Positions 5,194 to 62,060 are shown, numbered from the stretch's first letter. The stretch is 64,000 bases of DNA from Fimbriimonas sp. (GCA_965248555.1 CBDFJP010000002.1:2134093-2198092); one strand, 5' to 3'. The notes: generated by a model not told the origin, from the sequence alone. A program made the numbers and translations.

Positions 5194-6582
5194 ATGCTGA
5201 AAGTCGAGGGTCTTTGCAAGGCGTTCGGCTCCACAAGGGCCGTCGACCAGGTTTCGCTCATTGCGAAACCTGGTCGCGTTTTGGCCCTCATCGGCGAAAA
5301 CGGAAGCGGTAAAAGCACCCTCATGAAGCTGATTTCGGGGGAAACCGAACCAGATTCTGGCTTAGTGGAAATCAAGCCGAGCGAGGTACATCTCGTCCAC
5401 CAAGAACTCCTCCTCTGCCCCCACCTCACTGCCGCCGAGAACCTCTTTTTGGGCACAGCGAAGGGTGTCCGATTCTCGCCCAAAGCTCTCGAAGCCAAAG
5501 CCCAGGCAATCCTCGACGACCTCGGATTCCCAGAGGTCAAGGCGGGTCGAACAACGAGCGACCTCCCGATCTCCCAACGGCAAGTCATCGAAATCGCCCG
5601 CGCAATCATCAAAAACTGCCCAGTGATCCTCCTTGATGAGCCAACCAGTAGCCTCACCGAAGCCGACAAAGAGAAGTTCTACGGCCTCGTCCAAAGGCTC
5701 AAACAAGCGGACAAAACCGTTATCTTCATCTCCCACTTCCTCGAAGAAGTGAGGGCCGTCTCCGACGACTGCGTCATCCTTCGCGACGGCCAAGTTGTGG
5801 CTGCGGGGCTACTTGAGGACTTCTCAGATCAAGAAATTGTCCGGCACATGGTGGGCCGCGAAGTCACCGACCTCTTCCCCCGCTCGGAGCGAACGCCGGG
5901 TGAAGTCGTGCTCAACGTCCAGAACTTGACCGGCGAGGCCGGAAAGCCGTGCGAAGTCTCGTTCGAGCTCAAAGCCGGCGAAGTCCTCGGTCTCGCAGGC
6001 CTCAACGGAGCCGGAAAAACCGAACTCCTCCGAACCGTTTTTGGCCTCAGACGCACCCTTTCTGGCTCAAACGGCGGGCGAAAGCAGTGGAGTGATGGCG
6101 TTGGCTTCGTCAGCGAAGAGCGCAAGCTCGACGGAATCACCCTCCCCCTCAGCGTCGCCGAAAACGCCACCATGCCCACCCGCCACGGCTTCCTCAGCAA
6201 GCCAAAACAAGTCTCGGCAAAGGGTGCCGAATGGATTTCCAAGGTAGGAATCGCCGCCCAATCCCCCGATCAGCCCGTCGGAAGCCTCAGCGGTGGAAAC
6301 CAACAAAAAGTCGCCTTCGCCCGCCTCCTGCACGCAGACTGTAAACTGCTCATCTTGGATGAACCAACGCGCGGAGTAGATGTGGGAAGCAAAGCCGAAA
6401 TTTATCGCCTCATCGACGAGGCGGCAAAAGGCGGCGCGGCGGTGCTGATGGCAAGCTCCTACCTGCCAGAACTCCTCGGAGTTTGCGACCGGATCGGAGT
6501 CATGAACCGGGGCAGGCTGGTGAGCATCCACGATGCCAAAACAGCGACCTCCGAAGAGCTGGTTGCAGAGTGTGTCCGATGA
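5194..6582 (+). CDS. sugar ABC transporter ATP-binding protein (tandem ABC domains)
   Basis: Walker A GENGSGKST. Signatures LSGGNQQKV and ILLDEPT / LILDEPTRGVD. Confidence 0.9.
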   Translation: MLKVEGLCKAFGSTRAVDQVSLIAKPGRVLALIGENGSGKSTLMKLISGETEPDSGLVEIKPSEVHLVHQELLLCPHLTAAENLFLGTAKGVRFSPKALEAKAQAILDDLGFPEVKAGRTTSDLPISQRQVIEIARAIIKNCPVILLDEPTSSLTEADKEKFYGLVQRLKQADKTVIFISHFLEEVRAVSDDCVILRDGQVVAAGLLEDFSDQEIVRHMVGREVTDLFPRSERTPGEVVLNVQNLTGEAGKPCEVSFELKAGEVLGLAGLNGAGKTELLRTVFGLRRTLSGSNGGRKQWSDGVGFVSEERKLDGITLPLSVAENATMPTRHGFLSKPKQVSAKGAEWISKVGIAAQSPDQPVGSLSGGNQQKVAFARLLHADCKLLILDEPTRGVDVGSKAEIYRLIDEAAKGGAAVLMASSYLPELLGVCDRIGVMNRGRLVSIHDAKTATSEELVAECVR

Positions 6583-7529
6583 AAAAGAAGCCGAATCAGA
6601 TCATCGGAGTCCTCATCGCGTGGTTCCTCATCTACGCCTTTTTCGCCTTCCAAAAACCCCAAACCTTCCTGGGCCTAGCCAACTTTGAACTCCTCCTCCG
6701 CCAATCCACCATGATCGGAATCGGGGCCGTAGGAATGACCTACGTCATCGTCGCTGGCGGAATCGACCTCAGTGCCGGAAGCGTCATCGCCCTCTCCTCC
6801 GTCGTCGGAGCCATTACCTTTAATCGAACCCAAAACCCACTCATGGCGGTCTTCGCCTGCGCCCTCACCGGCTTTGCCTGCGGCGCGCTAAACGGAGTTC
6901 TCACCTCAAAGCTCAAAGCCGGCCCCTTCATCGTCACCCTCGGCTCCATGCTCGCAATCCGGGGAATCGCCAAGGGCCTCGCCGACGAGAAAACCGTCTC
7001 CACCGGCGGCGAAGGCTGGCTCTTCGAGTTCATCTCAAAAACCAAATCCTGGTTCGTCTTTCCCGTCGGAACCTGGATGTGGATATTCTTCCTCGGCCTC
7101 ATGGCCTGGGCCATGATCTACACCAACTTCGGGCGAAACGTGGTCGCCGTTGGCTCTAACGAGAGTGCTGCAAAGCTCTGCGGAATTCCCGTCGACCGAG
7201 TAAAAATAGGCGCCTACGCCGTCGCCGGATTCTTCTTCGGCCTCGCCGGACTGATGTCCCTTTCCCGAACATCCCTCGGTGATCCCACCTCCGCAACCGG
7301 CGACGAACTCCGCATCATCGCTGCCGTTGTCATCGGCGGAGCCTCCCTCTCGGGCGGCGAAGGAAGCGTCATCGGCGCCGCCATCGGCGCCCTCATCATG
7401 GCCACTATCAGCATGGGCGGAACCCAAATGGGCGTCGCCAACTGGAAGCAAGAAATCTTCACCGGCATCATCATCCTCGCCGCCGTAGCCATCGACCGCT
7501 GGCGCATCGCGCGTCGGCAAACCAACTGA
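6579..7529 (+). CDS. sugar ABC transporter permease (RbsC/branched-chain family)
   Basis: The ATG at 6579 overlaps the ATPase stop (ATGA). It is multi-TM, with motifs IVAGGIDLS and AAVVIGGASLSGGEGS. Confidence 0.9.
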   Translation: MKKKPNQIIGVLIAWFLIYAFFAFQKPQTFLGLANFELLLRQSTMIGIGAVGMTYVIVAGGIDLSAGSVIALSSVVGAITFNRTQNPLMAVFACALTGFACGALNGVLTSKLKAGPFIVTLGSMLAIRGIAKGLADEKTVSTGGEGWLFEFISKTKSWFVFPVGTWMWIFFLGLMAWAMIYTNFGRNVVAVGSNESAAKLCGIPVDRVKIGAYAVAGFFFGLAGLMSLSRTSLGDPTSATGDELRIIAAVVIGGASLSGGEGSVIGAAIGALIMATISMGGTQMGVANWKQEIFTGIIILAAVAIDRWRIARRQTN

Positions 7530-7567
7530 GAGCTCAACCAATCGAAATCGAAACCTTCAAAAAATCG

Positions 7568-8725
7568 TTGCGATCTGGAAGTGGTCGGGCGGTTCTGGCG
7601 ATTAACGAAGGTGCGAGCAACGAGCAACGCCAGGCCATCTGGGATGCTTGTCTTACGGATCAGCGACTCGACCGACAAACCGAAGATATTCGGGGTCAGT
7701 ATCTGCTTGCCCTTGCAGCCAAAGCTGGACTCAGAGATCGTCTCCGCAATGGAGTTCTTGATCCGGCACAGCCGTTTGAGGATTCCCAACGACTCTCGTT
7801 CTGGGAGTTATTCGCCAAAGATGGCGATCACGCCTGCATAGCCGAACTCCAGGACAAAGCTCTCGACGGGGATTTTTCCGCGAGTGACGCGCTAGCCGAG
7901 ATCGGCGAACTCTCCTGGGTCATCTCGAATATCCTTCCTACCCTCTCGCCAGACGAAGCCTGGAGGGCAAAGATGTGGCTAAGCGAGAGTCCGGAGGTTT
8001 CAACGGAAGAGCAAGAAGCCCTTGAGAGGACGGCCGCCACGCATCAACCGACATACAAATTGAACCGCGAAGAACAGACCTTCGAGGAAGTCATTCAAAA
8101 GCTTCAGAACTCAAACCTTTACAATGCTTCGCTCAGCCGAATGGCCCCGTCGCTGACCGAAGAGCAAGTGCTCCTCGTCGCTAATCTATGGTTGGAGGAG
8201 CGGGAGCATCGAAAGGGTTTGAACTACGCGAAACTGTTCGACGCAAGGGAGTTTCCACTGCCGCCAGCAACAATTATCAAGCTGGTACGCGACGGTGATG
8301 CTCCTGTGCAGTTTCAAAATGTTTTGTCGTGGATTGATAGCCCCGAAGTGCGAGAATTTGCCTTGGAACTCATCAACTCTGGCGACTACCGAGGCTTCCT
8401 CTCCGGTGCGTGTTCCTGGACCGACGGAGACATCCAAGGTCTTTCGCACCACTTGACGAAATTCGGGGCGCTGACGCGGGGTGAACTCCATCGGCTCTGT
8501 ATGGAGCTACTGACAATGTGCAAAGAATGGAACCCCGACGAACGGATCGACATGCTCACGTGGGTGTACGAGCAAAGCCCTTGTTCAATGTGCCGTGGAG
8601 GCGCGACCAGGCGCCTAGTAGACGATCAGACTTTGCCCGCCGTGTACTGGCAAGAGCTTGAATTCGATGCCGAATCGGGCAACCGCGATCTATTCGCAAA
8701 ACGGTTCGAGCCGAAATCGCCCTAA
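7568..8725 (+). CDS. hypothetical protein
   Basis: 385-codon ORF. The only start option in roughly the first 140 codons is the TTG at 7568. No family recognised. C-terminal CSMCRGG motif. Confidence 0.45.
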   Translation: MRSGSGRAVLAINEGASNEQRQAIWDACLTDQRLDRQTEDIRGQYLLALAAKAGLRDRLRNGVLDPAQPFEDSQRLSFWELFAKDGDHACIAELQDKALDGDFSASDALAEIGELSWVISNILPTLSPDEAWRAKMWLSESPEVSTEEQEALERTAATHQPTYKLNREEQTFEEVIQKLQNSNLYNASLSRMAPSLTEEQVLLVANLWLEEREHRKGLNYAKLFDAREFPLPPATIIKLVRDGDAPVQFQNVLSWIDSPEVREFALELINSGDYRGFLSGACSWTDGDIQGLSHHLTKFGALTRGELHRLCMELLTMCKEWNPDERIDMLTWVYEQSPCSMCRGGATRRLVDDQTLPAVYWQELEFDAESGNRDLFAKRFEPKSP

Positions 8726-23175: not shown

Positions 23176-24685
<1,510 letters not shown>

Positions 24686-30911: not shown

Positions 30912-32843
30912 TTACGGATTCAAAACCCTCAATTTGATCGTCTCTGGAACCTCGCGGATTTCCGCCAGAAGCTCGTCTGAAACCTTATCGGCGATATCCG
31001 TCACCAAGTAACCAATCAGATCCCGAGTCTTCAGGTTCTGACCCACGATGTTCACCCCGTGTCGCGCAAAAATCGCTGACACCGAAGCCACAATCCCCGG
31101 CACGTTCCGGTGAATATGCAAAATCCGCATCCCCTTCTGAATCGGCGGCAGGTACAAATCTGGCAAAGAAACTGAACCCAGCGTCTCGCCCTGCGCCACA
31201 AACTTCCGCAGCCGCTCCGAAACATAAGCTGCAATATTCCGCTGAGCCTCCTCCGTGCTCCCCGCAATATGCGGAGTAAGGATCACGTTTGGCAATCCGC
31301 GCAAAACCGACTCAAAAGGCTCGTCATTCGACTTCGGCTCCGAAGGGAAAACATCGATCCCCGCCCCGCCAACCTTGCCCGACAAAACAGCATCCCGTAA
31401 TGCCCCATAATCCACGACGGAGCCCCGAGACAAGTTCAAAAAGATGACCCCGTCCTTCATCATCTCAAACTCCTTCTTCGAGATCAAGTTCTTGTTCGAA
31501 GCCCGCCCATCAAAGTGGACGCTGATCACATCCGACTGCTTCAACAAGTCATGTAGCGACTGAATCCGCTGAGCCTTCCCATGCGACAGCTTCTCCGCGA
31601 TGTCGTAATACAGAACCTCCAGCCCCACGCTCTCCGCCAAAACGCTGAGCTGAGACCCGATATTCCCGTATCCAATAATCCCGAGCTTCTTCCCCCGAAT
31701 CTCGTGCGCCCCTGCCGCCGACTTCGTCCATCGCCCCTCGTGCAAGGCCGTCGAGTGTGCAAACACGCGCCGCATCAACACCATTGCCTCTCCCAAAGCG
31801 AGTTCAACCACGCTCCGCGTATTGCTAAAAGGAGCATTGAAAACCGCTACCCCGCGAGAAGCTGCGCAAGAAGAATCCACATGATCCGTCCCCACGCTAA
31901 AAACCCCAATCGCCATCAACCGCTTCCCAGCCTGAATCACCCGCGCCGGAATCTTTGTCCGAGTCCGAACCCCGATAATCGAAACGTCCTTGATTCGCCG
32001 GACCAACTCATCTTCCGAAAGCTTCTCCTTAACCTGCTCAACCCGGTACCCCTCCGCCACCAGGCTGTCCGCCGCATCAGAGTCGATGGAATCAAGAAGC
32101 AATATGTTTATCTTTGAGCGGGGAAAGCTGTACCGTGTAGGCAAGTCCGACTCCGCCAAGACCTCATCAATCCCATAAACCACCGAGTCCGCCTTCGCCG
32201 CAACCGCCTCGCGATACACCGTCTCGGCGTAACAGAAAAACCTCGAGGCCGCCCCGGCTTCCCGGATCTGATAGTCGGTAAACCCATCGCCAACCACCCA
32301 TTTCGGCCCTTCGTAAGCGATCGACTCGACAACCGGAATCTTTCCTCCTACCTGCGAAAGTGGGTTCTGATCGTCAAATCCGATTATCTTCCCTTCCTCA
32401 TCAAACAAGAAAGAATTAGCGTAGACGCGGGAATTCGGAATATCCAGCAACGCCGCAATCGGAGCCACAAACTCCGCAAACCCACCCGTCACCACATAAA
32501 GTCGATCCGCAACCGCCTTCAGCTGCTTCTTATGCGCCGCGAAGCTCGGCGACAGCGACTTCTTGAGCTTCTTGGCCAGTGTCTCCAAATGCCCTTGGTT
32601 CGCATCCAAAAGCCGAACACGCTCGGCCAAAGACTCACGGAAGCCTAACTTCCCTTCCATGCCGAGCTTTGTCAGTTCCTCGATTCGAGCCAGCCGCTCA
32701 TCCCGCTCCGGATGCTTCGCTAAGGAAATTTCCGCGAGAGCATCGAGTGACTCAACGGTGACAATCGTGCTGTCAAAATCCAAAATGAGGATGGGCTTCA
32801 TGGACATACGCGACGCCGAGCCCCATTGCTTCTTGTCTCGCAA
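30912..32843 (-). CDS. serA: fusion protein: HAD phosphoserine phosphatase (N) + D-3-phosphoglycerate dehydrogenase + ACT domain (C)
   Basis: HAD motifs DFDSTIV and VGDGFTD. Dehydrogenase motifs GIIGYGNIGSQ and TPHIAGST. C-terminal ACT segment ILHIHRNVPGIVA. Likely start is the ATG at 32807 (MSMKPIL). Confidence 0.85.
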   Translation of the reverse strand: MRDKKQWGSASRMSMKPILILDFDSTIVTVESLDALAEISLAKHPERDERLARIEELTKLGMEGKLGFRESLAERVRLLDANQGHLETLAKKLKKSLSPSFAAHKKQLKAVADRLYVVTGGFAEFVAPIAALLDIPNSRVYANSFLFDEEGKIIGFDDQNPLSQVGGKIPVVESIAYEGPKWVVGDGFTDYQIREAGAASRFFCYAETVYREAVAAKADSVVYGIDEVLAESDLPTRYSFPRSKINILLLDSIDSDAADSLVAEGYRVEQVKEKLSEDELVRRIKDVSIIGVRTRTKIPARVIQAGKRLMAIGVFSVGTDHVDSSCAASRGVAVFNAPFSNTRSVVELALGEAMVLMRRVFAHSTALHEGRWTKSAAGAHEIRGKKLGIIGYGNIGSQLSVLAESVGLEVLYYDIAEKLSHGKAQRIQSLHDLLKQSDVISVHFDGRASNKNLISKKEFEMMKDGVIFLNLSRGSVVDYGALRDAVLSGKVGGAGIDVFPSEPKSNDEPFESVLRGLPNVILTPHIAGSTEEAQRNIAAYVSERLRKFVAQGETLGSVSLPDLYLPPIQKGMRILHIHRNVPGIVASVSAIFARHGVNIVGQNLKTRDLIGYLVTDIADKVSDELLAEIREVPETIKLRVLNP

Positions 32844-45936: not shown

Positions 45937-48390
45937 AGGCGACCGGGTCATCCTGGCGACGTGATCGCCCGCAAGCGACCTCGCTTCGAAATGAGACACC
46001 GCCCCATTCACCCGCACATAGTAAACCCCCGCCTCCGGGAAGGTAAGGAAGTTGTCCATAAACGGCTCGGTGTCGCCATCGACCGATAGCATCAGATCCA
46101 CAACCGGCTGGTCGATCCGAAGGGCAAGAAGGTAGTCATCCTTCGCGTTTTCGGTCGGAGTATTGTTGCTGCCAACAATCGCCACCGGCGAGGCAAAGCG
46201 TGTCTCCTTCGGCTCAGCACAAAGGTGCCAAACCGCTCCGCCATAGCCGCCCCACCCGTGGAACAACGTCTCTGGGCAGGGAAGACCCGTCAGATCAAAT
46301 TCTCCAATGACCTGCCGCTGACCAGGCTCAGAAACGAACTTAAATTCGGCGCCTCGAACCACCTCGCCACTCGCAAGATTCGTCGCCGAAGCAAAGAACA
46401 TATTGCGAATCGGTTCGCCTTCCAGGCGATCATCCACGGCGTGGATGCGAATTTTCTCCTTCACCCGTTCGAGCGAGAAAATCGACTGGTCGTAGAGCCG
46501 TCTAAGCTCGTGAGCCGCCGCCTTGTATCGCCCGCTTGAATCGATGACCGCCCAGCTCTGAACCGGCCAGATGTCATTCAGTTGCCAAATCAGAGACCCT
46601 CGGCAGAACGCCGAACGGCGGAAGTGCTCAACCCCCATCCGAATCGCATCGCGCTGGTTGAGCTGAGAGTAATAAGTCCAATCCTCAAGCGACTGGCTCT
46701 TGGGATAGTGCAACTCGACGAATCCGACAAAGGTCTCCGTCCCCTTCCGAGTCTTGTCGTGCCAGCGAACAACCGGGCTCAAATGGTCCCAATCTTCCTC
46801 ACCAATCGTCTCCTCCCAAAGAGCCAGCGAGCAGGACGAAGCGAACCCATACTCCGAGCTAAATCGAGCCTCGGAATCCAGGTAGTACTTCCAATCCCCC
46901 CGCCCATGCCAGGCGTCCCAGTAGTGCGAGTCGCCAATCTTTCCGCCGTTGGCGTCGGGTTGCGAGTCGCCACAGGGTGAGGTGTGAATATAGCTCGTTT
47001 CCGGGTTCAACTCGGCTACAACGGCCGGGAACAGCTTGTCATATAGGTTCTCACCATAGAATCGAGGAGGGTGCTCGCCGCCCTTCCAGTTCCACTTCTG
47101 CTGCCACATTTGCAGGTTTTCGTTGTTCCCACACCACAACGCCAAAGAGGCATGGTGGCGCAGGCGCTTGACGTTAAACTCCGCTTCCGGACGAATCTGA
47201 TCCTGCCACTCCTGAGTGTCTGGATAGTAAGCACAAGCCTGCGGGAAGTCCTGCCAGACCATGATCCCAAGCTCGTCGCAGATGTCGTAGAACTCGTCCA
47301 TCTCATACATCCCCCCACCCCAAATGCGGAGCATGTTTGAGCCAAGGTCAACGGCCTGAAGCAGCCTCTCGTCGTACCGAGCCTTCGTAATCGCCGACGG
47401 GAACGAGAAATCAGGAATCCAGTTGAAGCCCTTTGCGTAAATCTTCTTGCCGTTCACCTCAAACTCGAACGACTCGCCAATCTCGTCTTTCTCTCGCAGC
47501 AGCTTGATGTTGCGGAGACCGATCTTGATGCTCTTGTAGTCATCCGCAAACTCTTCGTTGGTCGATAGATGCGCGGTGAGCTGGTGCAGAACCTGGTCGC
47601 CAGCCCCGACTGGCCACCAGAGCTCCGGATTCTGAACGTGGAAAACGCCGTCCTCGGAGTACTCCTCGGCGTCGCCAGTCATAAGAGCGTATCTCAGCTC
47701 GCCTGGACCTTCCTTTTCCGCGTAAGCTCGCAGGGTCACAGACCCATCTTCGTGCCACTCCTGAGTCGCGCTCAGGTGCGAGACACGATTGCTAAACTCG
47801 ACCAGCCGCACCGGCCGCCAGACCCCACAACTGACCAGCCTCGGGCCCCAATCCCAGCCGTACATGCACTGGATCTTGCGCACAAATGACCGCTCTTCAA
47901 ACCGCTCGACATACTCCGGCAATCCCTCTTTCTTGAAGAACTCCGCCTGCCGCTCTAGCCCAACTCGTACAGCCGATGAGAAGTCGATCCGAAGCTCATT
48001 TTCCCCTTCAACCAGAAGTGAACTAACATCCAGCTCAAGCGCAACAAACATGTTGTCGTGCGAAGCAACCTGCTTCCCGTTCAAAGAGATTGTGCAGACC
48101 GTATCCAGCCCCTCAAAAATCAGCTTGCGAATCGGAGCCTCCTCTTTCGGCTCCCAATAAAACGTCGTTCGATAGCTCCAATCCGTCTCGTCCACCCACT
48201 GAGCGCCGTACTCGTTCATCCGCTCGTGCGGGTGCGGAATGATGCCGTGCTGCATCAGGTCAAGGTGAATATGCCCCGGTACAATCGCCTCCAGCCACTC
48301 CGGATTGCTGTAGCCCAAGGTCGCCCCCGGCTTGTCGTGCTTGGTTTCTATGAACTCCCAGCCTTCGTGCAGATATGTCTCAACGAGCAT
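45928..48390 (-). CDS. beta-mannosidase (GH2)
   Basis: WLEAIVPGHIHLDL, WDWGPR, IRIWGGGMYE and WCGNNE motifs. Confidence 0.85.
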   Translation of the reverse strand: MLVETYLHEGWEFIETKHDKPGATLGYSNPEWLEAIVPGHIHLDLMQHGIIPHPHERMNEYGAQWVDETDWSYRTTFYWEPKEEAPIRKLIFEGLDTVCTISLNGKQVASHDNMFVALELDVSSLLVEGENELRIDFSSAVRVGLERQAEFFKKEGLPEYVERFEERSFVRKIQCMYGWDWGPRLVSCGVWRPVRLVEFSNRVSHLSATQEWHEDGSVTLRAYAEKEGPGELRYALMTGDAEEYSEDGVFHVQNPELWWPVGAGDQVLHQLTAHLSTNEEFADDYKSIKIGLRNIKLLREKDEIGESFEFEVNGKKIYAKGFNWIPDFSFPSAITKARYDERLLQAVDLGSNMLRIWGGGMYEMDEFYDICDELGIMVWQDFPQACAYYPDTQEWQDQIRPEAEFNVKRLRHHASLALWCGNNENLQMWQQKWNWKGGEHPPRFYGENLYDKLFPAVVAELNPETSYIHTSPCGDSQPDANGGKIGDSHYWDAWHGRGDWKYYLDSEARFSSEYGFASSCSLALWEETIGEEDWDHLSPVVRWHDKTRKGTETFVGFVELHYPKSQSLEDWTYYSQLNQRDAIRMGVEHFRRSAFCRGSLIWQLNDIWPVQSWAVIDSSGRYKAAAHELRRLYDQSIFSLERVKEKIRIHAVDDRLEGEPIRNMFFASATNLASGEVVRGAEFKFVSEPGQRQVIGEFDLTGLPCPETLFHGWGGYGGAVWHLCAEPKETRFASPVAIVGSNNTPTENAKDDYLLALRIDQPVVDLMLSVDGDTEPFMDNFLTFPEAGVYYVRVNGAVSHFEARSLAGDHVARMTRSPLE

Positions 48391-53885: not shown

Positions 53886-54524
53886 ATGTTTTTTCGTAAG
53901 CCCAGAACCGTCAAGGTAGCAGTGACTCCGATCTTCTGCGATCACGGTTTTGCCCAGATTTTCGGCAGGTCGGCAGAGGTTTTCGAACTCTCGCCAGAAG
54001 AATGGGAACGGATTTGCTTGTCTCCAGATGCACCACTACGCCCTGAAGTCATGTGTTCGTTGCGAGAACTCAAGTCAGGAACCGAGCGACTTGTAGGAGA
54101 AGAAGATGTGAAAGTCCTGTTTCCCCAATACATCCGAGAGCATCGAAAGCGCATTCGGGAGCAGGAGCTAGGAGAAGTCAGGGTCGATTCGCTTAGCCCT
54201 ACTCGGTGGCAGGTCAGTATATACGAAGCACAAGGCGAAGCTCGGTTTAGGAAAGCGCACGGCGAATCAGTTCGTGGACGACGATGTGTCGGAGCAACTA
54301 TTCGGCAAGAAAGAATTCTCTGGGGAGTGATCAACCTAGAACAAGAAAGCCCTTTCTTATCAGAACTTGTAGATTTTTTGGACTATCGGAGGCCAACAAA
54401 TAACTCTACACCAGTTTGCATCGAACTGAAATTTGAGCATGGAGCAACGTTCTGCATAGAAGTCGACTTCAGCGACTTTGAGCGAGAGAAACCCGGCCTT
54501 CTCGGTCGAATCCTCGCTTACTAG
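53886..54524 (+). CDS. hypothetical protein
   Basis: Internal ATG at 53886. No family recognised. Confidence 0.5.
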   Translation: MFFRKPRTVKVAVTPIFCDHGFAQIFGRSAEVFELSPEEWERICLSPDAPLRPEVMCSLRELKSGTERLVGEEDVKVLFPQYIREHRKRIREQELGEVRVDSLSPTRWQVSIYEAQGEARFRKAHGESVRGRRCVGATIRQERILWGVINLEQESPFLSELVDFLDYRRPTNNSTPVCIELKFEHGATFCIEVDFSDFEREKPGLLGRILAY

Positions 54525-54539
54525 CTCGAAACAGAATCG

Positions 54540-54827
54540 TCAGCTCTCTTCAGCACGTAACCGCCGCTCGAACCAGAACGCACCGAACGGCACGTTCCCC
54601 GCAACAAATCCGAGGATCACCTTGCTCAGTGGCCACTTATCGGCCATCCAAACCCGAAGCAGACAGATGAGAAAAACCAGGAAAAGAAGACCGTGCAAAG
54701 TGCCGACAACCCGGACCGCCTCCGGAATATGGGCGATGTACTTCAATGGCATCGCCACAAAGTAAAGCAGAATCGCCGAAATTCCCTCGACAATCGAAAT
54801 CTTGCGAAATGCGTCCAACGCGCTCAT
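54540..54827 (-). CDS. DUF3817-family membrane protein
   Basis: FRKISIVEGISAILLYFVAMPLKY...LHGLLFLVF...GNVPFGAFWFE. Confidence 0.75.
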   Translation of the reverse strand: MSALDAFRKISIVEGISAILLYFVAMPLKYIAHIPEAVRVVGTLHGLLFLVFLICLLRVWMADKWPLSKVILGFVAGNVPFGAFWFERRLRAEES

Positions 54828-54905
54828 TCAAACGAGTTTACTGAACCGAAAACCGTAAACCGAGAACTGCAAACCCAATTCCAGCGTCATACTAAATGTA
54901 TAACT

Positions 54906-55259
54906 GGGGGCGTCAGGGTTCGACAGGACTGAAGCGACTCACCGTTGCGAGCCGTGGATTCTCGTTGGCCACGTAAAAAACGAGAAAAAAATAACTGCAA
55001 ACAACAACTTTGCATTCGCAGCCTAAGTAGCCGCGCATGAGCCAGTTCTGAGCCAGTAAGAACTGATCCTCGTGTAGCCAAATCTGGATCGCTAGGGCGA
55101 GCTTCTGTTCGTAGCAGACCCGGCTAAACAAAACCGAACTAAGGGTGCGCTAGGCGGTCTCGGCAGAGGCGCACTTCGAAAATCCAAACTGAGAAGACGC
55201 TCGTGGTAACGCTGGGAAGGCGGTTTTGGAAGGGAGTTCAATTCTCCCCGCCTCCACCA
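54906..55259 (+). ncRNA. ssrA: tmRNA (SsrA), tag ANNNFAFAA
   Basis: 5' GGGGGCGTCAGGGTTCGACAGG and 3' GGAGTTCAATTCTCCCCGCCTCCACCA. The acceptor stem has G3-U70. The tag reading frame gca aac aac aac ttt gca ttc gca gcc taa is at 54997-55026. Confidence 0.95.
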
Positions 55260-55556
55260 GTTTATGTTGTTTAGGTCTTTCGCCAATTCACGAACTTCCC
55301 ACCCCCATCCGGCGTTCAAATAAGTGTGAAGCAAACTGCCAAGCGAGTTCGGGTGTCGTTGGATTCTCCCACGACGAAAAAGGAGATGATTCTGCCGTTC
55401 TTCGTAGTGCCCGAAGCTGGCGACGACATTGTCCTCTTCGGCTCCCACTGGGATGTGCAGGCCCACAAAGTCAGCCAAAAACCCGATGATCAAGGCTGCA
55501 ACCACTCCGTCCAACTCCGCCTTGCGAGCTAGGCCTTTTCAGCGCAATTCAGCGAC

Positions 55557-55572
55557 TGTGACCCAAGTCACA
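55557..55572 (+). promoter_or_regulatory. perfect CRP-type box TGTGA-cccaag-TCACA upstream of gene 55633
   Basis: Seen directly. Its centre at 55564.5 is about 42 nt upstream of the TSS implied by the -10-like TACAGT at 55595-55600. Confidence 0.6.
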
Positions 55573-56558: not shown

Positions 56559-57632
56559 ATGGCTCAGGTCCCACCTGAGCCAAGAGTCACCTTCCCGGAG
56601 CAAACAATGTTGTCCGCATCAACGATCCTCTTCACCCTCCTCGTAACAAAGTCACAGAAAGGTCAGCCAAAGCCACCTAAATCCCAACCGCCGCCCATCC
56701 AAGTCCCTTGGCAAGGCCCCAAACGGCTCATCCAAATGGGGGCCTTCGAGCTAAAAACAACCCGAATCACCAGCGGACAAGGCGGCGTCTCCTTCTCTGC
56801 CTCCTCCGGAAATGTCTCGGGCGGTGGAGCCTCTTCTGGCCCGCAATCTCTCGATATCGCCGACCCAATGGTGTTCAGCGCCGGAGTGGCAGACATTGCC
56901 AAAACCGAGTTCGCCGCGTTCCGAGGATTCGATCTCATCGAACCCGCCCCACCTGGCCAAGATGGCACCAACTCAACTCCGCCCGAACGCCTCCCTAGGC
57001 CCCAATTCATCCTCAACGCCACGATCTCGGACATTACAGTCCGAACAAAGTCAGGCGGAATTCGAATCGGCCCCATCGGCGGCGGCAAAGAGAGATTTTC
57101 CAACAAGGTCGTCATCGAAATGCGCTTCATCGACCCCGAAACCCGAGTGATCATGGTCGGATGCAAGGCAACTGGCGAGAAATTTTCGGAAGCAAACACA
57201 ATGGCAGTCTTGGCAGACAGCGCCTTCGGCGAAGTCCCCGTTGCCAGCTTCGGCGAGTTTCAGGAGAGTCCCCTCGGCGAAGCCACCCGAGCCGCCCTTC
57301 AAGACGGACTCAAGCAGCTCTGCGCCGAACTGATGAAACTCGGCTGGACCAGCGAAGTGATCGACATTCAAGAAGCCGACGGAGTCAAAACGGCACTCTT
57401 CGAAGTCGTCGAAGGCCTAAAAGTCGGCGACATCATCGAATCCATCACGCCCGGACGCATCATTAGAGACCCCAAATCGGGACGTAGGCTCGGCGAGACA
57501 AAAGCCCAAATCCTCGGTCAGCTCAAAGTGACGGCGATCAACGGAAGCCTGGTCGAAGCCATCGGCATTGACGGATTCGTCCCTGAAGTCGGACACATCA
57601 TCCGACCCAAGCCAACAGTAAAACAAAAATGA
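56559..57632 (+). CDS. possible CsgG/HfaB-like envelope protein (low-confidence family call)
   Basis: N-terminal hydrophobic segment. FILNATISDITVRT...VVIEMRFIDPETRVIM...SPLGEATRAALQDGLKQL resembles the CsgG core. A likely start is the ATG at 56607. Confidence 0.45.
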   Translation: MAQVPPEPRVTFPEQTMLSASTILFTLLVTKSQKGQPKPPKSQPPPIQVPWQGPKRLIQMGAFELKTTRITSGQGGVSFSASSGNVSGGGASSGPQSLDIADPMVFSAGVADIAKTEFAAFRGFDLIEPAPPGQDGTNSTPPERLPRPQFILNATISDITVRTKSGGIRIGPIGGGKERFSNKVVIEMRFIDPETRVIMVGCKATGEKFSEANTMAVLADSAFGEVPVASFGEFQESPLGEATRAALQDGLKQLCAELMKLGWTSEVIDIQEADGVKTALFEVVEGLKVGDIIESITPGRIIRDPKSGRRLGETKAQILGQLKVTAINGSLVEAIGIDGFVPEVGHIIRPKPTVKQK

Positions 57633-57641
57633 CGATCGTAG

Positions 57642-60191
57642 GTACAATCGCGCCTATATACCTTCCTGCACACCGACCTCGAAGGCAGTAGTGCCGCGTG
57701 GGATATTGACCCCCAAAAGGCGAAGTCCGAAATCGCCCGCCTGTTCCAGCGCACCGAAACCGCAACCTTCAAGGCGGGCGGACGAGTCTACAAAAAGCGG
57801 GGCGATGGTCAAGCCGCCGTCTTCCAAAACAGCGACGATGCCCTCAACGCGATCCACGACCTTGCCAACGACCCAAACGCCGTCGAACTGCTCCCTCGGC
57901 TCCGACTCGTTCTCCACTGCGGCGAGGCCGAAGACCTCGGCGACGAGTTCTTAGGTGCCTGCCTCAATGTCGTTGGCCGACTGCTCGACGCCGCTCACCC
58001 CGGCCAAATCCTCGCCACCGACGAGTTTTTGCGTACGTGCAAAAATCCACCGGGTTCTGCTGAGCTCGATAAGCTAAGGCTCCGAGGCATCGCCTCGCCA
58101 ATTCGAGTCTTCCAACTCAATCTCGGCGGATCGCAAACGGAGTTCCCGCCCCTGAGGGGTTCCGCCCCGCCGACCAATCTTCCCCGGCTCCCCGCCGACT
58201 TCTTCGGGCGCAAGTCCGAACTCAACGACTTGACCAAGCTGATTATCGAAAAAAAGCTTCCCCTAGTCACCGTGCGCGGGTTCGGTGGAGTCGGCAAAAC
58301 CACCCTCGCCACTCAGTTCGCCCACAACGTATCAGACCACTTCCAAAACCGGATCTGGTGGGTCAGAGCCGATCACGCATTTTCCGCCGAACACCTCCTT
58401 GAGCAAATCTGTCACGCCCTCCGGTTCGAGCAAAACGCGACGGAACTCCTCGGTGCCCTCCCCGACATCTGCCAAAAACCAAGTCTCCTCGTCTTCGATT
58501 GCTTTGAATCAGCCGTAGAATTCGGAAGTGTAGTCACCGAAATACTGGAAGCCGCGCCCCAACTTCAGGCCGTCGTCACCAGCCGAAGACGGCTAGAACT
58601 CGACCAAGAATACGTCCTCGAACTTGGCGGAATCGTCAACACCACCAGCCTAAGACCCAACTGGGAGCCGGGCTTCTCCCTCTTCGAGCGCGCAGCCAAC
58701 CGAGCAAGTACTGGATTCAAACTCGGCGTGGCAGATCGCCCCCAGATCAAGTCCATCATCACCCGTGTCGACGCAATCCCCCTTGCGATCCAGCTCTGCG
58801 CGGGGAGGGTCAACCACATGACCCTCGCGCAAATCGATTCACAACTCGCCAAGAACCTTCTCGCAACCCTCAACCGAACCACCACAACCACCGACCGCCA
58901 CGGAAGCATGTCCACCGTCATTCAGGCATCCTTCGACCTGCTCAGCGAAGGCGAACGGGAACTCCTCGCAATGCTCGCGGCATTCCGCAAAGGCTTCGAT
59001 CTCGAAATTGCCAAACAAGTCACCCAGTACCGCAACTTCTTCGACACCTTCGGAGCACTCACAAACGCCTCCATGATCTCGCGGCAGACGGATGGCACGA
59101 CCCAACGCTTCCGCCTCCTCGACCCCGTCATCGAGTTCATCCGCGGGGTCGTCGCCCTCCTCCCAAGCCACCATTTTCAGCGGAGATTTTGCCATCACTA
59201 CGAGGCGTGGGCAATCAAAATGTCCAGTACAACCGACCGACAGGACTCGCTCACCAACGAAGTCGGAAACCTCGTCTCAGCCATCGAGTGGATGTGGTCA
59301 ACCCCAGAACTGACCCCGAACGACGAGTTCGTCAACCGAGTCCCACGGTTCCTCTACGACAACGGCTTCCTCTTCGAGTTCGACCTGCTTGTCGAAAGGA
59401 TTCTCGGATTCCACCACTTCACAGGCGTTGAGGCAAAAGCGGACGTGTACTCACTGGTCGCTGTTCGACACCGAACAGGCAAAAACTTGGAAGAAATGCG
59501 AACCGCGCTGAAACAGCGGTGGGAGTTGTTAAGGCCCCTACCGATTACAGGCCGAACCATTGATGCTCTTGGAGAAATCTGCGTCGCCGCCTGCGAGCAT
59601 CAGCACTCAGACTCAATAGACCTAGACCGTCTGTTGGATGAGTTTACGCTCACGCGCTCACAGTCGAGCGACGGCGAACTGCCCAGAAACTTGGATTGGG
59701 ATGCCGTTGAGCTGAACCTCCTTTTCAACTGCCGACGTACCGCCGACGCTCTCATGCTGGCCTCTGAGCTCATCACACGACTCAAAACACTGGAGCCTAA
59801 ATACTTCGGCTTTGCCTCCCGAATCACTGCCGAAATCTCACTACAAAGCGGCCAATTCCAAAACTCCGTCGCCATGTACACACGGCTCGCTCATAGCACC
59901 CAACCCCACTCACAGGCCGTCGGAATCTATGGCCTAGGGAAGTGTTCTGTAGCAATGGAAAAGTGGGAAGTTGCTACATTGTGCGTCGCGAGCCTCTACT
60001 CCTTCGAGCGCTCCGAAGCCCCCCGAGCCCATGCCTTCGCCGCAGACCTGAATAGGCTACTGCCACACTCTCCTAGTCGCGCCGAACCCATCCAAGACCC
60101 GGAAGATCGCGCAATGATCGTCTCCACAATTTTGGACTGTTTGCAGAATTGTGATCACGATCACACACAGGAATATACCAATCCCTTATAG
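57642..60191 (+). CDS. class III nucleotidyl cyclase domain + STAND/NB-ARC-like P-loop NTPase + helical-repeat protein; start codon unresolved, possibly frameshifted
   Basis: The open frame starts after TAG 57639-57641. Cyclase motifs FLHTDLEGSS, KKRGDGQAAVF, LRLVLHCGEAE and NVVGRLLDAAHPGQIL lie upstream of the first canonical start (TTG 58029, ORF-track start). Walker A is GFGGVGKTTLA and Walker B-like is LLVFDCFE. The C-terminal ~400 aa are helical-repeat-like. Confidence 0.7.
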   Translation, partial: VQSRLYTFLHTDLEGSSAAWDIDPQKAKSEIARLFQRTETATFKAGGRVYKKRGDGQAAVFQNSDDALNAIHDLANDPNAVELLPRLRLVLHCGEAEDLGDEFLGACLNVVGRLLDAAHPGQILATDEFLRTCKNPPGSAELDKLRLRGIASPIRVFQLNLGGSQTEFPPLRGSAPPTNLPRLPADFFGRKSELNDLTKLIIEKKLPLVTVRGFGGVGKTTLATQFAHNVSDHFQNRIWWVRADHAFSAEHLLEQICHALRFEQNATELLGALPDICQKPSLLVFDCFESAVEFGSVVTEILEAAPQLQAVVTSRRRLELDQEYVLELGGIVNTTSLRPNWEPGFSLFERAANRASTGFKLGVADRPQIKSIITRVDAIPLAIQLCAGRVNHMTLAQIDSQLAKNLLATLNRTTTTTDRHGSMSTVIQASFDLLSEGERELLAMLAAFRKGFDLEIAKQVTQYRNFFDTFGALTNASMISRQTDGTTQRFRLLDPVIEFIRGVVALLPSHHFQRRFCHHYEAWAIKMSSTTDRQDSLTNEVGNLVSAIEWMWSTPELTPNDEFVNRVPRFLYDNGFLFEFDLLVERILGFHHFTGVEAKADVYSLVAVRHRTGKNLEEMRTALKQRWELLRPLPITGRTIDALGEICVAACEHQHSDSIDLDRLLDEFTLTRSQSSDGELPRNLDWDAVELNLLFNCRRTADALMLASELITRLKTLEPKYFGFASRITAEISLQSGQFQNSVAMYTRLAHSTQPHSQAVGIYGLGKCSVAMEKWEVATLCVASLYSFERSEAPRAHAFAADLNRLLPHSPSRAEPIQDPEDRAMIVSTILDCLQNCDHDHTQEYTNPL
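60150..60165 (+). promoter_or_regulatory. second perfect CRP-type box TGTGA-tcacga-TCACA, inside the 3' end of the STAND gene
   Basis: Seen directly. The centre is at 60157.5 and a -10-like TATAGT lies at 60187-60192. The implied TSS near 60199 puts the box at -41.5 and coincides with the in-frame ATG at 60200. Confidence 0.55.
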
Positions 60192-61418: not shown

Positions 61419-62060
61419 ATGGCTGAAAACGCACAGTACCTCGCCAAAGTTGATCTATTCGCGAGCCTCCCGGCGGAGCGATTAGATCAACTTGGCGCTC
61501 TCTGCACCCGGACCAAACTCGCCCCCCAAGAGATTCTCTTGCGTGAAGGCGACCCGGGAAGCACCCTCTATTTCATTATCGGCGGAGTCCTGAGGGTCGA
61601 GCGATACACCGCCCGAGGCGGTGTGGTCCACCTAGCCATGCGCAGTGCCGGGGACACCATCGGCGAACTCTCGATCCTCACCGACGGCTACCGCTCAGCC
61701 TACGTCGTCGCCCACACCTCCGCCAAACTCCTCGTCATGGAGCGCGCCGCGTTCCTAAAGTACGCTCTGACTGAACCCGAGGTCACCCTCGCCCTCCTCG
61801 CCCGCCTCGCCGAGCGCGTCAAAGAAGCCTCGGAACTGGTCGTCTCCCGATCCGCCGCTTCCGTGGAGGACCGAATCCTCCAACTCATGCTCTCCATGGT
61901 CGACTCTGAAGGCGAAATCACCCTCAAAGAGTCCCAAGCCGAACTCGCAAACCGAATCGGCTGTTCCCGAGAAGCCCTCAGCCGCGCCATCGCAAAACTC
62001 GTCGACGACCGCCGCCTAGACCGCCTCAGCCCAAAAACCTACCGATGGACTGCAGTCTAG
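61419..62060 (+). CDS. CRP/FNR-family cNMP-binding transcriptional regulator (CRP-like recognition helix)
   Basis: cNMP pocket IGELSILTDGYRSAYVVA. The HTH GCSREALSRAIAKL compares with E. coli CRP GCSRETVGRILKML. Confidence 0.85.
   Translation: MAENAQYLAKVDLFASLPAERLDQLGALCTRTKLAPQEILLREGDPGSTLYFIIGGVLRVERYTARGGVVHLAMRSAGDTIGELSILTDGYRSAYVVAHTSAKLLVMERAAFLKYALTEPEVTLALLARLAERVKEASELVVSRSAASVEDRILQLMLSMVDSEGEITLKESQAELANRIGCSREALSRAIAKLVDDRRLDRLSPKTYRWTAV

What the first reader, a model, noticed from the sequence alone, without database searches (positions are those of the whole stretch)
57629..58031. Cyclase domain encoded in an open frame with no canonical start codon; an ATGA-coupled ATG sits one frame away
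The upstream gene ends at TGA 57630-57632 and an in-frame TAG follows at 57639-57641. After that come 129 sense codons (57642-58028) with no ATG, GTG or TTG. They nevertheless encode the core of a class III cyclase: VQSRLYTFLHTDLEGSSAAWD...AGGRVYKKRGDGQAAVFQNSDDALNAIHDL...LRLVLHCGEAEDLGDEFLGACLNVVGRLLDAAHPGQILATDEF. Both metal-binding Asp positions fall in this stretch. The first canonical start, TTG 58029 (the ORF-track start), would decapitate the domain. An ATG at 57629-57631 overlaps the upstream stop as ATGA, the coupling style used elsewhere in this window (6579, 26250, 27074). It opens MTIVGTIAPIY... in the frame one base behind and stops after 20 codons. Skipping one base near 57653 would join MTIVGTIA to LYTFLHTDLEGSS, a natural-looking N-terminus. 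There are four possibilities: a sequencing indel, a recent inactivating frameshift, a programmed +1 shift, or non-canonical initiation (CTG at 57666).
Basis: seen in the sequence. Interest (0 to 1): 0.7.

Follow-up and report, generated by a model that had tools for sequence, protein, structure and literature searches.

The report
Cyclase gene missing its start codon
A cAMP-signalling gene in an Armatimonadetes genome has an intact 849-codon reading frame but no usable start codon, most likely because of a tiny local mutation or base error and not an exotic decoding mechanism, so the database protein is 129 residues too short.

Summary
After TGA 57630-32 and TAG 57639-41, frame 0 is open from 57642 to 60191, and TTG 58029 is its first ATG/GTG/TTG. 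The start-less 129 codons encode most of a real class III cyclase domain (AlphaFold pLDDT 92; Foldseek top hits Ma1120 and Rv1900c). This stretch is better conserved than the rest of the protein (57% vs 44% identity to orthologs).

Relatives start M-x(1-5)-R-x-Y-T-F-L from ATG or GTG. The window keeps that register in frame 0 (V-Q-S-R-L-Y-T-F-L-H-T-D). GTA 57642-44 aligns with the initiator Met of two relatives.

The best reading is a start-codon lesion in frame 0: either GTG to GTA, or the 13-nt loss seen against the closest orthologs. Whether it is a real mutation or an assembly error cannot be decided without reads. ATG 57629 aligns with GTGA inside a CRP-box half-site of the orthologs and is probably fortuitous. 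A 1-nt insertion at 57639-42 remains a live rival. Programmed +1 recoding has no support.

The gene sits in a CRP-box-controlled operon of a genome rich in leaderless genes. Interest is low to moderate.

The parts
56559..57632 (+). Upstream CsgG-like gene (357 aa), ending at TGA 57630-32.
   Evidence: Pfam CsgG 25.1 bits. Orthologs P0123 and P0124 are 54-58% identical and sit in the same position.
57629..57691 (+). ATG overlapping the upstream stop (ATGA), opening a 20-codon ORF one frame behind the cyclase frame (MTIVGTIAPIYLPAHRPRRQ*).
   Evidence: It aligns with GTGA inside the CRP half-site TGTGA of the orthologs.
57639..57641 (+). In-frame TAG that bounds the cyclase frame on its 5' side.
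57642..57644 (+). GTA, the first sense codon of the frame. It lies in the alignment column of the initiator Met of L011/P0251 and P0264. This is the proposed position of the lost start codon.
57641..57651 (+). GGTACAATCGC, a -10-like element (TACAAT 57643-48). It matches 10 of 11 bases of the orthologs' GGTAGAATCGC, which lies 9 nt before their GTG start. In the window no start codon follows 5-9 nt downstream.
57642..60191 (+). Full reading frame of the cyclase-STAND gene (849 codons plus stop).
   Evidence: It is 46-47% identical over 95-99% of its length to P0002 and P0003.
57642..58136 (+). Class III nucleotidyl cyclase homology domain (residues 1-165; D12, K51, D55, N109, R113).
58029..58031 (+). 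TTG, the first canonical start codon and the annotated start. It lies inside the cyclase domain (L130) and is a gene-caller fallback.
58233..58937 (+). NB-ARC / STAND NTPase domain (residues 198-432; Walker A GFGGVGKTT).
   Evidence: Pfam NB-ARC 44.7 bits against a cut-off of 23.5; sequence.
60150..60165 (+). Perfect CRP-type box TGTGATCACGATCACA inside the 3' end of the gene (it encodes C-D-H-D-H). Its centre is 29.5 nt before the -10 TATAGT 60187-92, with ATG 60200 seven nt after that hexamer.
   Evidence: The same geometry is seen in L001 (box 8479-94, TAAGAT 8516-21).
55557..55572 (+). Perfect CRP-type box TGTGACCCAAGTCACA upstream of the first gene of the cluster (ATG 55633).
61419..62060 (+). 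Crp-family regulator with a cNMP-binding domain (213 aa), the last gene of the cluster.
   Evidence: Pfam cNMP_binding 60.9 bits and HTH_Crp_2; NCBIfam CRP E 2.5e-18. It is syntenic in L001.

Best explanation
Frame 57642-60191 is one gene. It encodes a cytoplasmic signalling protein with an N-terminal class III nucleotidyl cyclase domain, an NB-ARC/STAND ATPase and a helical C-terminal region. The gene lies in an operon that carries CRP-type operator boxes and ends with a Crp-family regulator.

Relatives begin M-x(1-5)-R-x-Y-T-F-L from ATG or GTG. In the window that register is intact in frame 0 immediately after the in-frame TAG (V-Q-S-R-L-Y-T-F-L-H-T-D), and the codon in the initiator's column is GTA.

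The initiation codon has therefore been lost, or is misreported by the assembly, through a very small local change in frame 0. There are two candidate changes:
- a G-to-A change of a GTG start at 57644; or
- the 13-nt loss seen against the closest orthologs, which removes their GTG and joins the -10 box to codon 3.

No frameshift is needed. ATG 57629 is a by-product of a decayed CRP half-site. TTG 58029 is only the gene caller's fallback. As sequenced, the full-length protein cannot be initiated canonically. The locus is either a very recent start-loss allele (an incipient pseudogene) or a base-level assembly error.

Shown: the domain identity, the coding frame at R4, the position of relatives' start codons and the absence of any start codon in the window. 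Inferred: which lesion occurred, and whether it is biological.
For: 1. The frame-0 N-terminus matches relatives. They read MSRLYTFLFTD (P0267), MEPRRYTFLHSD (P0251), MAQRAYTFLHTD (P0250 from its internal ATG), MAARTYTFLFTD (P0264) and MARTYAFLQTD (P0002). The window reads VQSRLYTFLHTD, and its V1 falls in the Met column of P0251 and P0264.
2. The DNA of these relatives shows canonical starts: GTG 6001 in L001, which is the only possible start because an in-frame TAG lies 4 codons upstream; GTG 4574 in L002; GTG 3001 in L010; ATG 3001 in L011; ATG 457 in L012.
3. MAFFT aligns the window's GGTACAATCG with the orthologs' GGTAGAATCG. It places a 13-nt gap in the window exactly over the orthologs' CCGAACCGTGGCC, which contains their start codon. 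The alignment is ungapped from the Arg codon onward.
4. The start-less 129 codons are 57% identical to the orthologs, against 44% for the annotated 720 aa. D12, K51, D55, N109 and R113 are invariant among the three orthologs, so any inactivation is recent.
5. The cyclase fold is confirmed, and strand beta-1 spans residues 3-13.
6. There is no unusual RNA structure (z = 0.04).
7. The other genes checked in the window look intact, so the assembly is not riddled with indels.
Against: - No close relative of this locus exists in any searchable collection. The clusters of P0001, P0121 and P0122 are singletons at 90% identity, and the best orthologs are 46-58% identical. The ancestral state in this lineage is therefore inferred across a large distance.
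- The two lesion variants conflict with each other. If GGTACAATCGC is homologous to the orthologs' -10 box, then the A of GTA is ancestral and not a mutated G.
- The ATGA overlap is the coupling style of this genome, and a single extra base at 57639-42 would explain the data equally simply.
- An intact 849-codon frame with all catalytic residues is also what a functional gene with an unusual initiation mechanism would look like.
- No reads are available, so error and mutation cannot be separated.
Confidence: 0.5

Rival explanations
1. A single extra base, either a real insertion or an assembly error, lies at 57639-57642 (for example one G of the GG at 57641-42). Without it, ATG 57629, coupled to the upstream stop as ATGA, would read MTIV(V)QSRLYTFLHTD... 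straight into the cyclase. The gene would be normal, or a recent frameshift allele.
For: - ATGA overlaps are used elsewhere in this window (6579, 26250, 27074), and the operon is tightly packed with gaps of 2-20 nt.
- The ATG frame stays open across the TAG.
- Removing one base of 57639-42 gives an uninterrupted 853-codon ORF that keeps the conserved R-x-Y-T-F-L (sequence).
- Some relatives have 4-5 residues before the Arg.
Against: - Only 3-4 positions can carry the indel, because the TAG must be broken and R4 kept in frame.
- GGTACAATCGC matches the orthologs' GGTAGAATCGC without any gap, GG included.
- An A before TGA is expected about one time in four by chance.
- This ATG aligns with GTGA inside the orthologs' CRP half-site, which is non-coding there.
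- Relatives start 1-5 residues before the Arg, not 6.
- No other frameshifted gene was found in the window.
Confidence: 0.2
2. The gene is functional as sequenced and is initiated at a non-canonical codon. One option is GUA 57642, at the family's initiator position, perhaps by re-initiation of ribosomes that terminate 10 nt upstream. The other is CUG 57666, on a short-leadered transcript from the TACAAT box.
For: - The 849-codon frame is intact and all catalytic residues are present.
- The cyclase domain is the best-conserved part of the protein.
- GTA sits exactly at the initiator column.
- A -10-like box is present.
- Weak starts are known for cyclase genes: E. coli cyaA uses UUG, which gives about one sixth of the AUG output (PMC5499595).
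- The orthologs themselves use GTG with no Shine-Dalgarno sequence.
Against: - GUA differs from AUG at two positions and is not a near-cognate start.
- In reporter tests, even near-cognate codons drastically lower initiation on leaderless mRNA (PMC8459731).
- CUG 57666 would delete residues 1-8 of strand beta-1 (residues 3-13 in the model). It would give a shorter N-terminus than any of the 120 listed family members, whose shortest form is M-T-F-L-F-T-D.
- Every relative examined has ATG or GTG.
Confidence: 0.12
3. A programmed +1 recoding event. Ribosomes start at ATG 57629 and shift, or hop, from GUA 57638-40 to GUA 57642-44 (GUA-G-GUA), bypassing the overlapping UAG.
For: - The two frames overlap in the required order.
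- A repeated GTA 4 nt apart offers matching take-off and landing codons.
- ATGA coupling would deliver ribosomes to the ATG.
Against: - The arrangement is not conserved. The orthologs have a plain GTG start, and their equivalent upstream GTG is in a different frame relation, needing -1 and not +1.
- There is no slow codon or stop in the A site of the ATG frame at the proposed site (the next codon is GGU).
- There is no Shine-Dalgarno-like stimulator.
- There is no RNA structure (z = 0.04).
Confidence: 0.03
4. The annotation is right. The protein starts at TTG 58029 as a cyclase-less STAND ATPase, and the upstream 129 codons are a decaying remnant.
For: TTG 58029 is the first canonical start and the one in public records (P0001).
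Against: - TTG 58029 is L130, inside the cyclase fold, which would orphan the last strands.
- No -10 box or Shine-Dalgarno sequence precedes it.
- The upstream stretch has no stop in 129 codons, is 57% identical to the orthologs and keeps every catalytic residue.
- All relatives of this architecture carry the full domain.
Confidence: 0.05

Closest known systems
Multidomain class III adenylyl cyclases fused to a STAND/NB-ARC-type ATPase and helical repeats. From my own knowledge, the Mycobacterium tuberculosis proteins Rv0386, Rv1358 and Rv2488c are of this type. The hits P0004-P0120 are annotated 'predicted ATPase/class 3 adenylate cyclase'.
   Same: The domain order is the same: N-terminal cyclase, then a P-loop STAND ATPase, then a helical C-terminal region. 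Homology runs from the first residues (E 1e-24 to 1e-28 for the cyclase domain alone). The metal-binding Asp pair, Lys, Asn and Arg are conserved. Many members begin right at strand beta-1.
   Different: Identity is only about 30%. PF00211 does not reach any threshold on the window protein. There is no LuxR or TPR Pfam match in the C-terminal part. The gene belongs to a small Armatimonadetes-type subfamily linked to CsgG-like and Crp genes. Uniquely among the members examined, it has no start codon.
E. coli cyaA: a cyclase gene with a deliberately weak UUG start and, from my own knowledge, negative control by cAMP-CRP.
   Same: It is a cyclase gene with weak translation initiation. cyaA output for UUG:GUG:AUG is 1:2:6 (PMC5499595). 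The orthologs L001 and L002 carry a perfect CRP-type box 8 nt upstream of the -10 box, overlapping the usual -35 position, which is consistent with repression.
   Different: cyaA is a class I cyclase with a canonical, if weak, start codon. The window gene has no near-cognate codon at the N-terminus, and its CRP box is destroyed.
Start-codon loss or 5'-lesion pseudogenes, and N-terminally truncated gene calls in automated annotation.
   Same: The ORF is intact and homologous upstream of the first canonical start, and the gene caller falls back to an internal TTG. The same caller behaviour appears in L002, where the GTG is present but TTG 4667 was chosen.
   Different: Here no canonical start exists at all in the correct region, so re-annotation alone cannot fix the model.
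Programmed +1 frameshifting of prfB (RF2) and short translational hops.
   Same: An upstream ATG frame overlaps a downstream frame that is displaced by +1.
   Different: There is no conserved shift site, no in-frame stop or hungry codon at the site, no Shine-Dalgarno stimulator and no conservation in orthologs.
Leaderless genes, with a -10 box 6-8 nt before ATG or GTG. From my own knowledge, they are abundant in Actinobacteria and Deinococcus-Thermus.
   Same: The genome uses this layout for 15 of 47 starts, against 0.9% of internal ATG/GTG codons (p = 1e-19). The relative L011 has TAAACT, 8 nt, then ATG. The window gene carries a matching GGTACAAT box.
   Different: In the window the triplets 5-9 nt after the box fall in TATATACC, with no ATG, GTG or TTG.

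Membership tests
Class III nucleotidyl cyclase (cyclase homology domain) | A beta-alpha-beta-beta-alpha-beta catalytic fold that superposes on solved class III cyclases. | tested here: met
   The AlphaFold2 model has pLDDT 92.3. The Foldseek top 50 are all class III cyclases (Ma1120, Rv1900c, CyaC, Rv1264), with E down to 5e-12 and TM 0.77/0.88.
Class III nucleotidyl cyclase (cyclase homology domain) | Two metal-binding Asp residues (end of beta-1, and the GD motif of the beta-2/beta-3 turn). | tested here: met
   D12 (HTDLEG) and D55 (KKRGDG) align with the D and GD of 3mr7. D55 is invariant and D12 at least 90% conserved across 47 family members.
Class III nucleotidyl cyclase (cyclase homology domain) | Transition-state Asn and Arg (the N-x-x-x-R motif of helix alpha-4). 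| tested here: met
   N109 and R113 (LNVVGR) align with VNVAAR of 3mr7. R113 is invariant and N109 at least 90% conserved.
Class III nucleotidyl cyclase (cyclase homology domain) | The substrate-specifying pair (Lys and Asp for ATP). | tested here: inconclusive
   K51 is present four residues before D55. At the Asp position (D of the family's DYFG motif) the window and its orthologs have E102, with D101 adjacent. Nucleotide specificity cannot be assigned.
Class III nucleotidyl cyclase (cyclase homology domain) | A match to Pfam PF00211 above the gathering score. | tested here: not met
   There is no PF00211 hit even at E <= 10 for residues 1-183. Homology is only seen through family members and structure.
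Class III nucleotidyl cyclase (cyclase homology domain) | Cyclase activity of the protein. | not testable with these tools
   This needs an enzyme assay. Whether the protein is made at all is also unknown.
STAND / NB-ARC NTPase | NB-ARC profile match with Walker A and Walker B motifs. | tested here: met
   Pfam NB-ARC scores 44.7 bits (cut-off 23.5) over residues 198-432. The sequence shows GFGGVGKTT and LLVFDCFE.
Programmed +1 ribosomal frameshift (prfB type) | A shift site and frame arrangement conserved in orthologs. | tested here: not met
   L001, L002, L010, L011 and L012 all have an uninterrupted ATG- or GTG-initiated frame.
Programmed +1 ribosomal frameshift (prfB type) | A slippery P-site codon followed by a stop or rare codon, with an upstream Shine-Dalgarno-like or structural stimulator. 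| tested here: not met
   There is no stop or evident slow codon in the ATG frame within the permitted window 57639-57650. The RNA fold z-score is 0.04.
Leaderless gene (-10 box directly before the start codon) | A TAnnnT hexamer 6-8 nt upstream of ATG or GTG. | tested here: not met
   TACAAT 57643-48 is present, but the bases 5-9 nt downstream give no start codon. Half of the TACAAT hexamers in the window are not at gene starts.
ATGA-coupled operon gene | An ATG overlapping the upstream stop and continuous with the gene body. | tested here: not met
   The ATGA is present, but the ATG frame stops after 20 codons and is one base out of register with the gene body.
cAMP-CRP-type regulated operon | Palindromic TGTGA-N6-TCACA boxes at promoters, together with a Crp-family regulator. 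| tested here: met
   There are two perfect boxes in the 64-kb window, both in this cluster. By my estimate about 0.06 perfect matches are expected by chance. L001 has four matches at <=1 mismatch, two of them perfect; none of 200 shuffles reaches four. L002 has two perfect boxes. A Crp-family gene lies at 61419-62060. Binding and regulation were not tested.

The most novel reading that the evidence does not exclude
The gene is functional exactly as sequenced. The full-length cyclase-STAND protein would be made by non-standard decoding of the 57629-57666 region. One route is initiation at GUA 57642, the family's initiator position, by ribosomes re-initiating after the upstream UGA. The other is a +1 shift or 4-nt hop (GUA-G-GUA) from the ATGA-coupled ATG. 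Either route would keep this cAMP-producing regulator at very low levels after its CRP operator was lost.
Probability: 0.12. Interest if true: 0.6.

Novelty: new member of a known kind. Interest (0 to 1): 0.3.

Why it matters
Practically, the public protein model (720 aa from TTG 58029) is wrong. It hides a complete cyclase domain and would mislead any census of cAMP signalling in Armatimonadetes. The locus should be annotated either as an 849-codon gene with an unresolved or defective start, or as a pseudogene.

Biologically, the gene lies at the centre of a compact cAMP module: CRP-type boxes, a cyclase-STAND sensor and a Crp regulator, next to CsgG-like and unknown envelope proteins. In this lineage the cyclase's own operator and start codon are both gone. 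That suggests the module is being rewired or dismantled.

If the protein were nevertheless produced, this would be a rare bacterial case of initiation at a non-near-cognate codon, or of +1 recoding. Nothing found here favours that.

Tried and rejected
- **Closer relatives.** I looked for them to settle error against mutation, and found none.
  - The protein search found nothing above 47% identity except the window itself.
  - The clusters of three locus proteins are singletons at 90% identity.
  - P0001 is not on record in the contig index.
  - The genome contigs and metagenome-contig scans returned only distant cyclases.
  - A housekeeping gene does have relatives at 97% and 90% identity, so the locus may be accessory or simply unassembled in those samples.
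- **(TA)3 versus (TA)4 slippage at 57655-60.** I considered this, and a CUU-to-UUC +1 slip at 57662. Both are rejected because they would put the conserved Arg (57651-53) out of frame.
- **A leaderless start after TACAAT.** The bases 5-9 nt downstream (TATATACC) hold no ATG, GTG or TTG. The AUA triplets there (57656, 57658) are out of frame.
- **A -35 partner for the box.** The promoter scan finds no plus-strand sigma-70 pair here.
- **The exact 11-mer GGTACAATCGC also occurs at 48278.** There is no extended similarity, and the match is probably chance.
- **RNA structure as a recoding stimulator.** None was found (z = 0.04).
- **Other broken genes, as a sign of an error-prone assembly.** None was found among the genes checked.
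- **The 129-codon start-free run as a signal in itself.** It is not unusual here.

Full report
**1. The observation**

- The CsgG-like ORF 56559..57632 ends at TGA 57630-32.
- TAG 57639-41 follows in the same frame.
- Frame 0 is then open from 57642 to TAG 60189-91, which is 849 codons.
- The first ATG, GTG or TTG in that frame is TTG 58029. This is the start used in the public protein P0001 (720 aa).
- ATG 57629 overlaps the upstream stop as ATGA and reads MTIVGTIAPIYLPAHRPRRQ* in the frame one base behind.
- The ATGA overlaps at 6579, 26250 and 27074 are real and open ORFs of 316, 275 and 179 codons.

A start-type-codon-free run of 129 codons is not remarkable in this window. Runs of 184, 167, 152 and 134 codons occur inside other genes, one of them later in this same gene. 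What is anomalous is that homology continues to the very first codons of the frame and no start is available there.

**2. Is the start-less stretch a cyclase domain?**

Pfam finds only NB-ARC (residues 198-432, 44.7 bits) and no PF00211, even when the N-terminus is scanned alone at E <= 10. Other evidence is decisive.
- phmmer of residues 1-185 against the family hits gives 1.6e-62 to the ortholog P0002. It gives 1e-24 to 1e-28 to many proteins that carry PF00211, with alignments starting at query residues 3-7.
- The PDB sequence search hits the class III cyclase 3mr7 (E 2.4e-5). D12, K-x-x-G-D55 and N109-x3-R113 align to the catalytic motifs.
- An AlphaFold2 model built on 47 family sequences has pLDDT 92.3, with strand beta-1 at residues 3-13.
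- The best Foldseek matches are the adenylyl cyclases Ma1120 and Rv1900c (TM 0.77/0.88).

The adenine-specifying Asp position carries Glu (E102, with D101 adjacent), so nucleotide specificity is open.

Codons 1-129 are 57% identical to the orthologs, against 44% for the annotated 720 residues. The N-terminus has therefore been under selection for essentially the whole divergence.

**3. What relatives do at their 5' ends**

The closest orthologs are P0002 (840 aa) and P0003, at 46-47% identity and in conserved synteny. The gene order is a 300-aa protein, a CsgG-like protein, the cyclase-STAND protein, a 400-aa protein and a Crp-family regulator.
- In L001 the only possible start is GTG 6001 (MARTYAFLQTD), because an in-frame TAG lies four codons upstream.
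- L002 has the same GTG at 4574, although its gene caller chose a downstream TTG.

An exhaustive HMMER search added more same-architecture proteins of 820-860 aa. Their N-termini are MSRLYTFLFTD, MEPRRYTFLHSD, (M)AQRAYTFLHTD, MAARTYTFLFTD, MAVEGRTYTFLFTD and so on. The pattern is M-x(1-5)-R-x-Y-T-F-L. Their DNA shows canonical starts:
- GTG preceded by a GGAGG Shine-Dalgarno sequence in L010;
- TAAACT, 8 nt, then ATG in L011 (a leaderless layout);
- ATG 457 in L012.

The window's frame 0 reads V-Q-S-R-L-Y-T-F-L-H-T-D. The conserved Arg and Tyr are in frame 0, and the alignment puts V1 (GTA 57642-44) in the column of the initiator Met of L011/P0251 and P0264.

Two consequences follow.
- Frame 0 is already the coding frame at 57651.
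- A join with the ATG-57629 frame is only possible at 57639-42, where it must also destroy the TAG.

**4. Genomic context**

The best named relative of a housekeeping gene is an Armatimonadetes MAG (77% identity).

The genome makes heavy use of leaderless starts. Fifteen of 47 gene starts have a TAnnnT hexamer 6-8 nt upstream, against 0.9% of internal in-frame ATG/GTG codons (p = 1e-19). The 16S rRNA nevertheless keeps a normal anti-Shine-Dalgarno tail.

The orthologs have GGTAGAAT, 9 nt, then GTG. The window has GGTACAATCGC at 57641-51, a 10-of-11 match. MAFFT places a 13-nt gap in the window precisely over the orthologs' CCGAACCGTGGCC, which contains their start codon. The alignment is ungapped from the Arg codon onward.

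Upstream of their -10 box the orthologs carry a perfect CRP-type box, TGTGACGGTCATCACA. In the window only AATGACGATCGT remains. The CsgG-like ORF now terminates at the TGA of the old half-site, and the window's ATGA corresponds to the orthologs' GTGA.

Perfect boxes survive at 55557-72 and 60150-65, and they are the only two in the 64-kb window. The centre of the second box is 29.5 nt before the -10 TATAGT, as in L001. That is class II geometry by my knowledge of E. coli CRP promoters.

So the cluster looks like a cAMP-CRP-controlled module, and the cyclase gene's own operator and start codon have both been lost in this lineage.

**5. Weighing the explanations**

(a) A frame-0 start lesion. 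GTG to GTA is a single transition at the exact initiator position. The 13-nt loss is a single event that explains both the -10 similarity and the missing start. These two variants are mutually awkward: if the box is homologous, the A of GTA is ancestral. I cannot separate them. Together I give them about 0.5.

(b) One extra base at 57639-42, with ATG 57629 as the true start. This is as simple as (a) and fits the ATGA style. However, the target is 3-4 nt, the GG is shared with the orthologs, an A before TGA is expected one time in four, and the N-terminal tail would be longer than in the relatives examined. About 0.2.

(c) Functional non-canonical initiation at GUA or CUG. The intact frame and conserved catalytic residues allow it. 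But GUA is not near-cognate, leaderless and short-leader mRNAs tolerate non-AUG codons poorly (PMC8459731), and CUG 57666 would remove most of beta-1. About 0.12.

(d) Programmed +1 shift or hop. There is no conservation, no pause codon, no stimulator and no structure. About 0.03.

(e) The annotated TTG start is genuine. It lies inside the fold and has no initiation signals. About 0.05.

Whether (a) or (b) reflects a real mutation or an assembly error cannot be decided here. The other genes checked in the window look intact, so the assembly is not generally error-prone. No reads or close relatives are available.

**6. Comparison with known systems, and verdict**

The protein is a new, divergent member of the known class III cyclase-STAND ATPase family. 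It passes the fold and catalytic-residue tests, fails the Pfam threshold, and passes NB-ARC.

The start problem belongs to the ordinary category of start-loss alleles, assembly errors and truncated gene calls. It fails every test for prfB-type frameshifting, for a leaderless start and for an intact ATGA-coupled start.

The finding is real and worth a correction of the gene model, but it is most likely mundane (interest 0.3). The unexcluded exciting reading is that a functional protein is made by non-standard decoding. It has roughly a 12% chance.

Noticed in passing
window 55557-55572 and 60150-60165; L001 3910-3925, 5962-5977, 8479-8494; L002 4535-4550, 7052-7067: Perfect CRP-type palindromes (TGTGA-N6-TCACA) occur only inside this gene cluster. 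One is embedded in the coding 3' end of the cyclase-STAND gene, where it encodes the conserved peptide C-D-(H/P)-D-H. Its centre is 29.5 nt before a -10 box in both lineages. The box in front of the cyclase gene is present in the orthologs but destroyed in the window.
   Followed up: partly
whole window (e.g. starts at 480, 4189, 9085-, 17966-, 19599-, 19637, 24826, 32891, 35322-, 36683-, 48390-, 50506-): About a third of gene starts (15 of 47) have a TAnnnT -10 hexamer 6-8 nt upstream of ATG or GTG and no Shine-Dalgarno sequence. This implies widespread leaderless mRNAs in this Armatimonadetes genome, although the 16S rRNA keeps a CACCTCCTT tail. The same layout appears in the related loci L001, L007 and L011.
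   Followed up: partly
window 23176-24685: A complete 16S rRNA gene has no 23S or 5S gene anywhere in the 64-kb window. A leaderless protein gene (ATG 24826) follows it directly, so the rRNA genes appear to be unlinked.
   Followed up: no
window 54906-55259: A tmRNA gene with tag peptide ANNNFAFAA. The ORFs listed across it (54478-55514, both strands) are spurious.
   Followed up: no
L002 4574 vs 4667: The ortholog P0003 (809 aa) is also annotated too short. The GTG start at 4574 is present, but the gene caller chose TTG 4667 and cut off 31 residues, including the first metal-binding Asp.
   Followed up: yes
window 30912-32843 (- strand): A fused phosphoserine phosphatase (SerB-like HAD) and phosphoglycerate dehydrogenase (SerA) protein of about 629 aa. 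Relatives at 97% and 90% identity exist in public assemblies, whereas the cyclase cluster has no relative above 58% identity. The cluster may be accessory.
   Followed up: no
window 7283-8725 (+): Another frame with 95 start-less codons before its first canonical start (TTG 7568). It overlaps the 3' end of the permease gene 6579-7529. There is no Pfam match, and it is unclear whether the true start lies upstream.
   Followed up: partly
window 48278-48288 and 57641-57651: The exact 11-mer GGTACAATCGC occurs twice in the window. The flanks are unrelated, so this is probably chance.
   Followed up: yes
L011 (contig of P0251): A more distant cyclase-STAND relative (32% identity) is again next to a 402-aa unknown protein, a CsgG-like gene and a 300-aa protein, in a different orientation. 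The link between this cyclase family and a CsgG-like envelope module is therefore conserved beyond the close orthologs.
   Followed up: no
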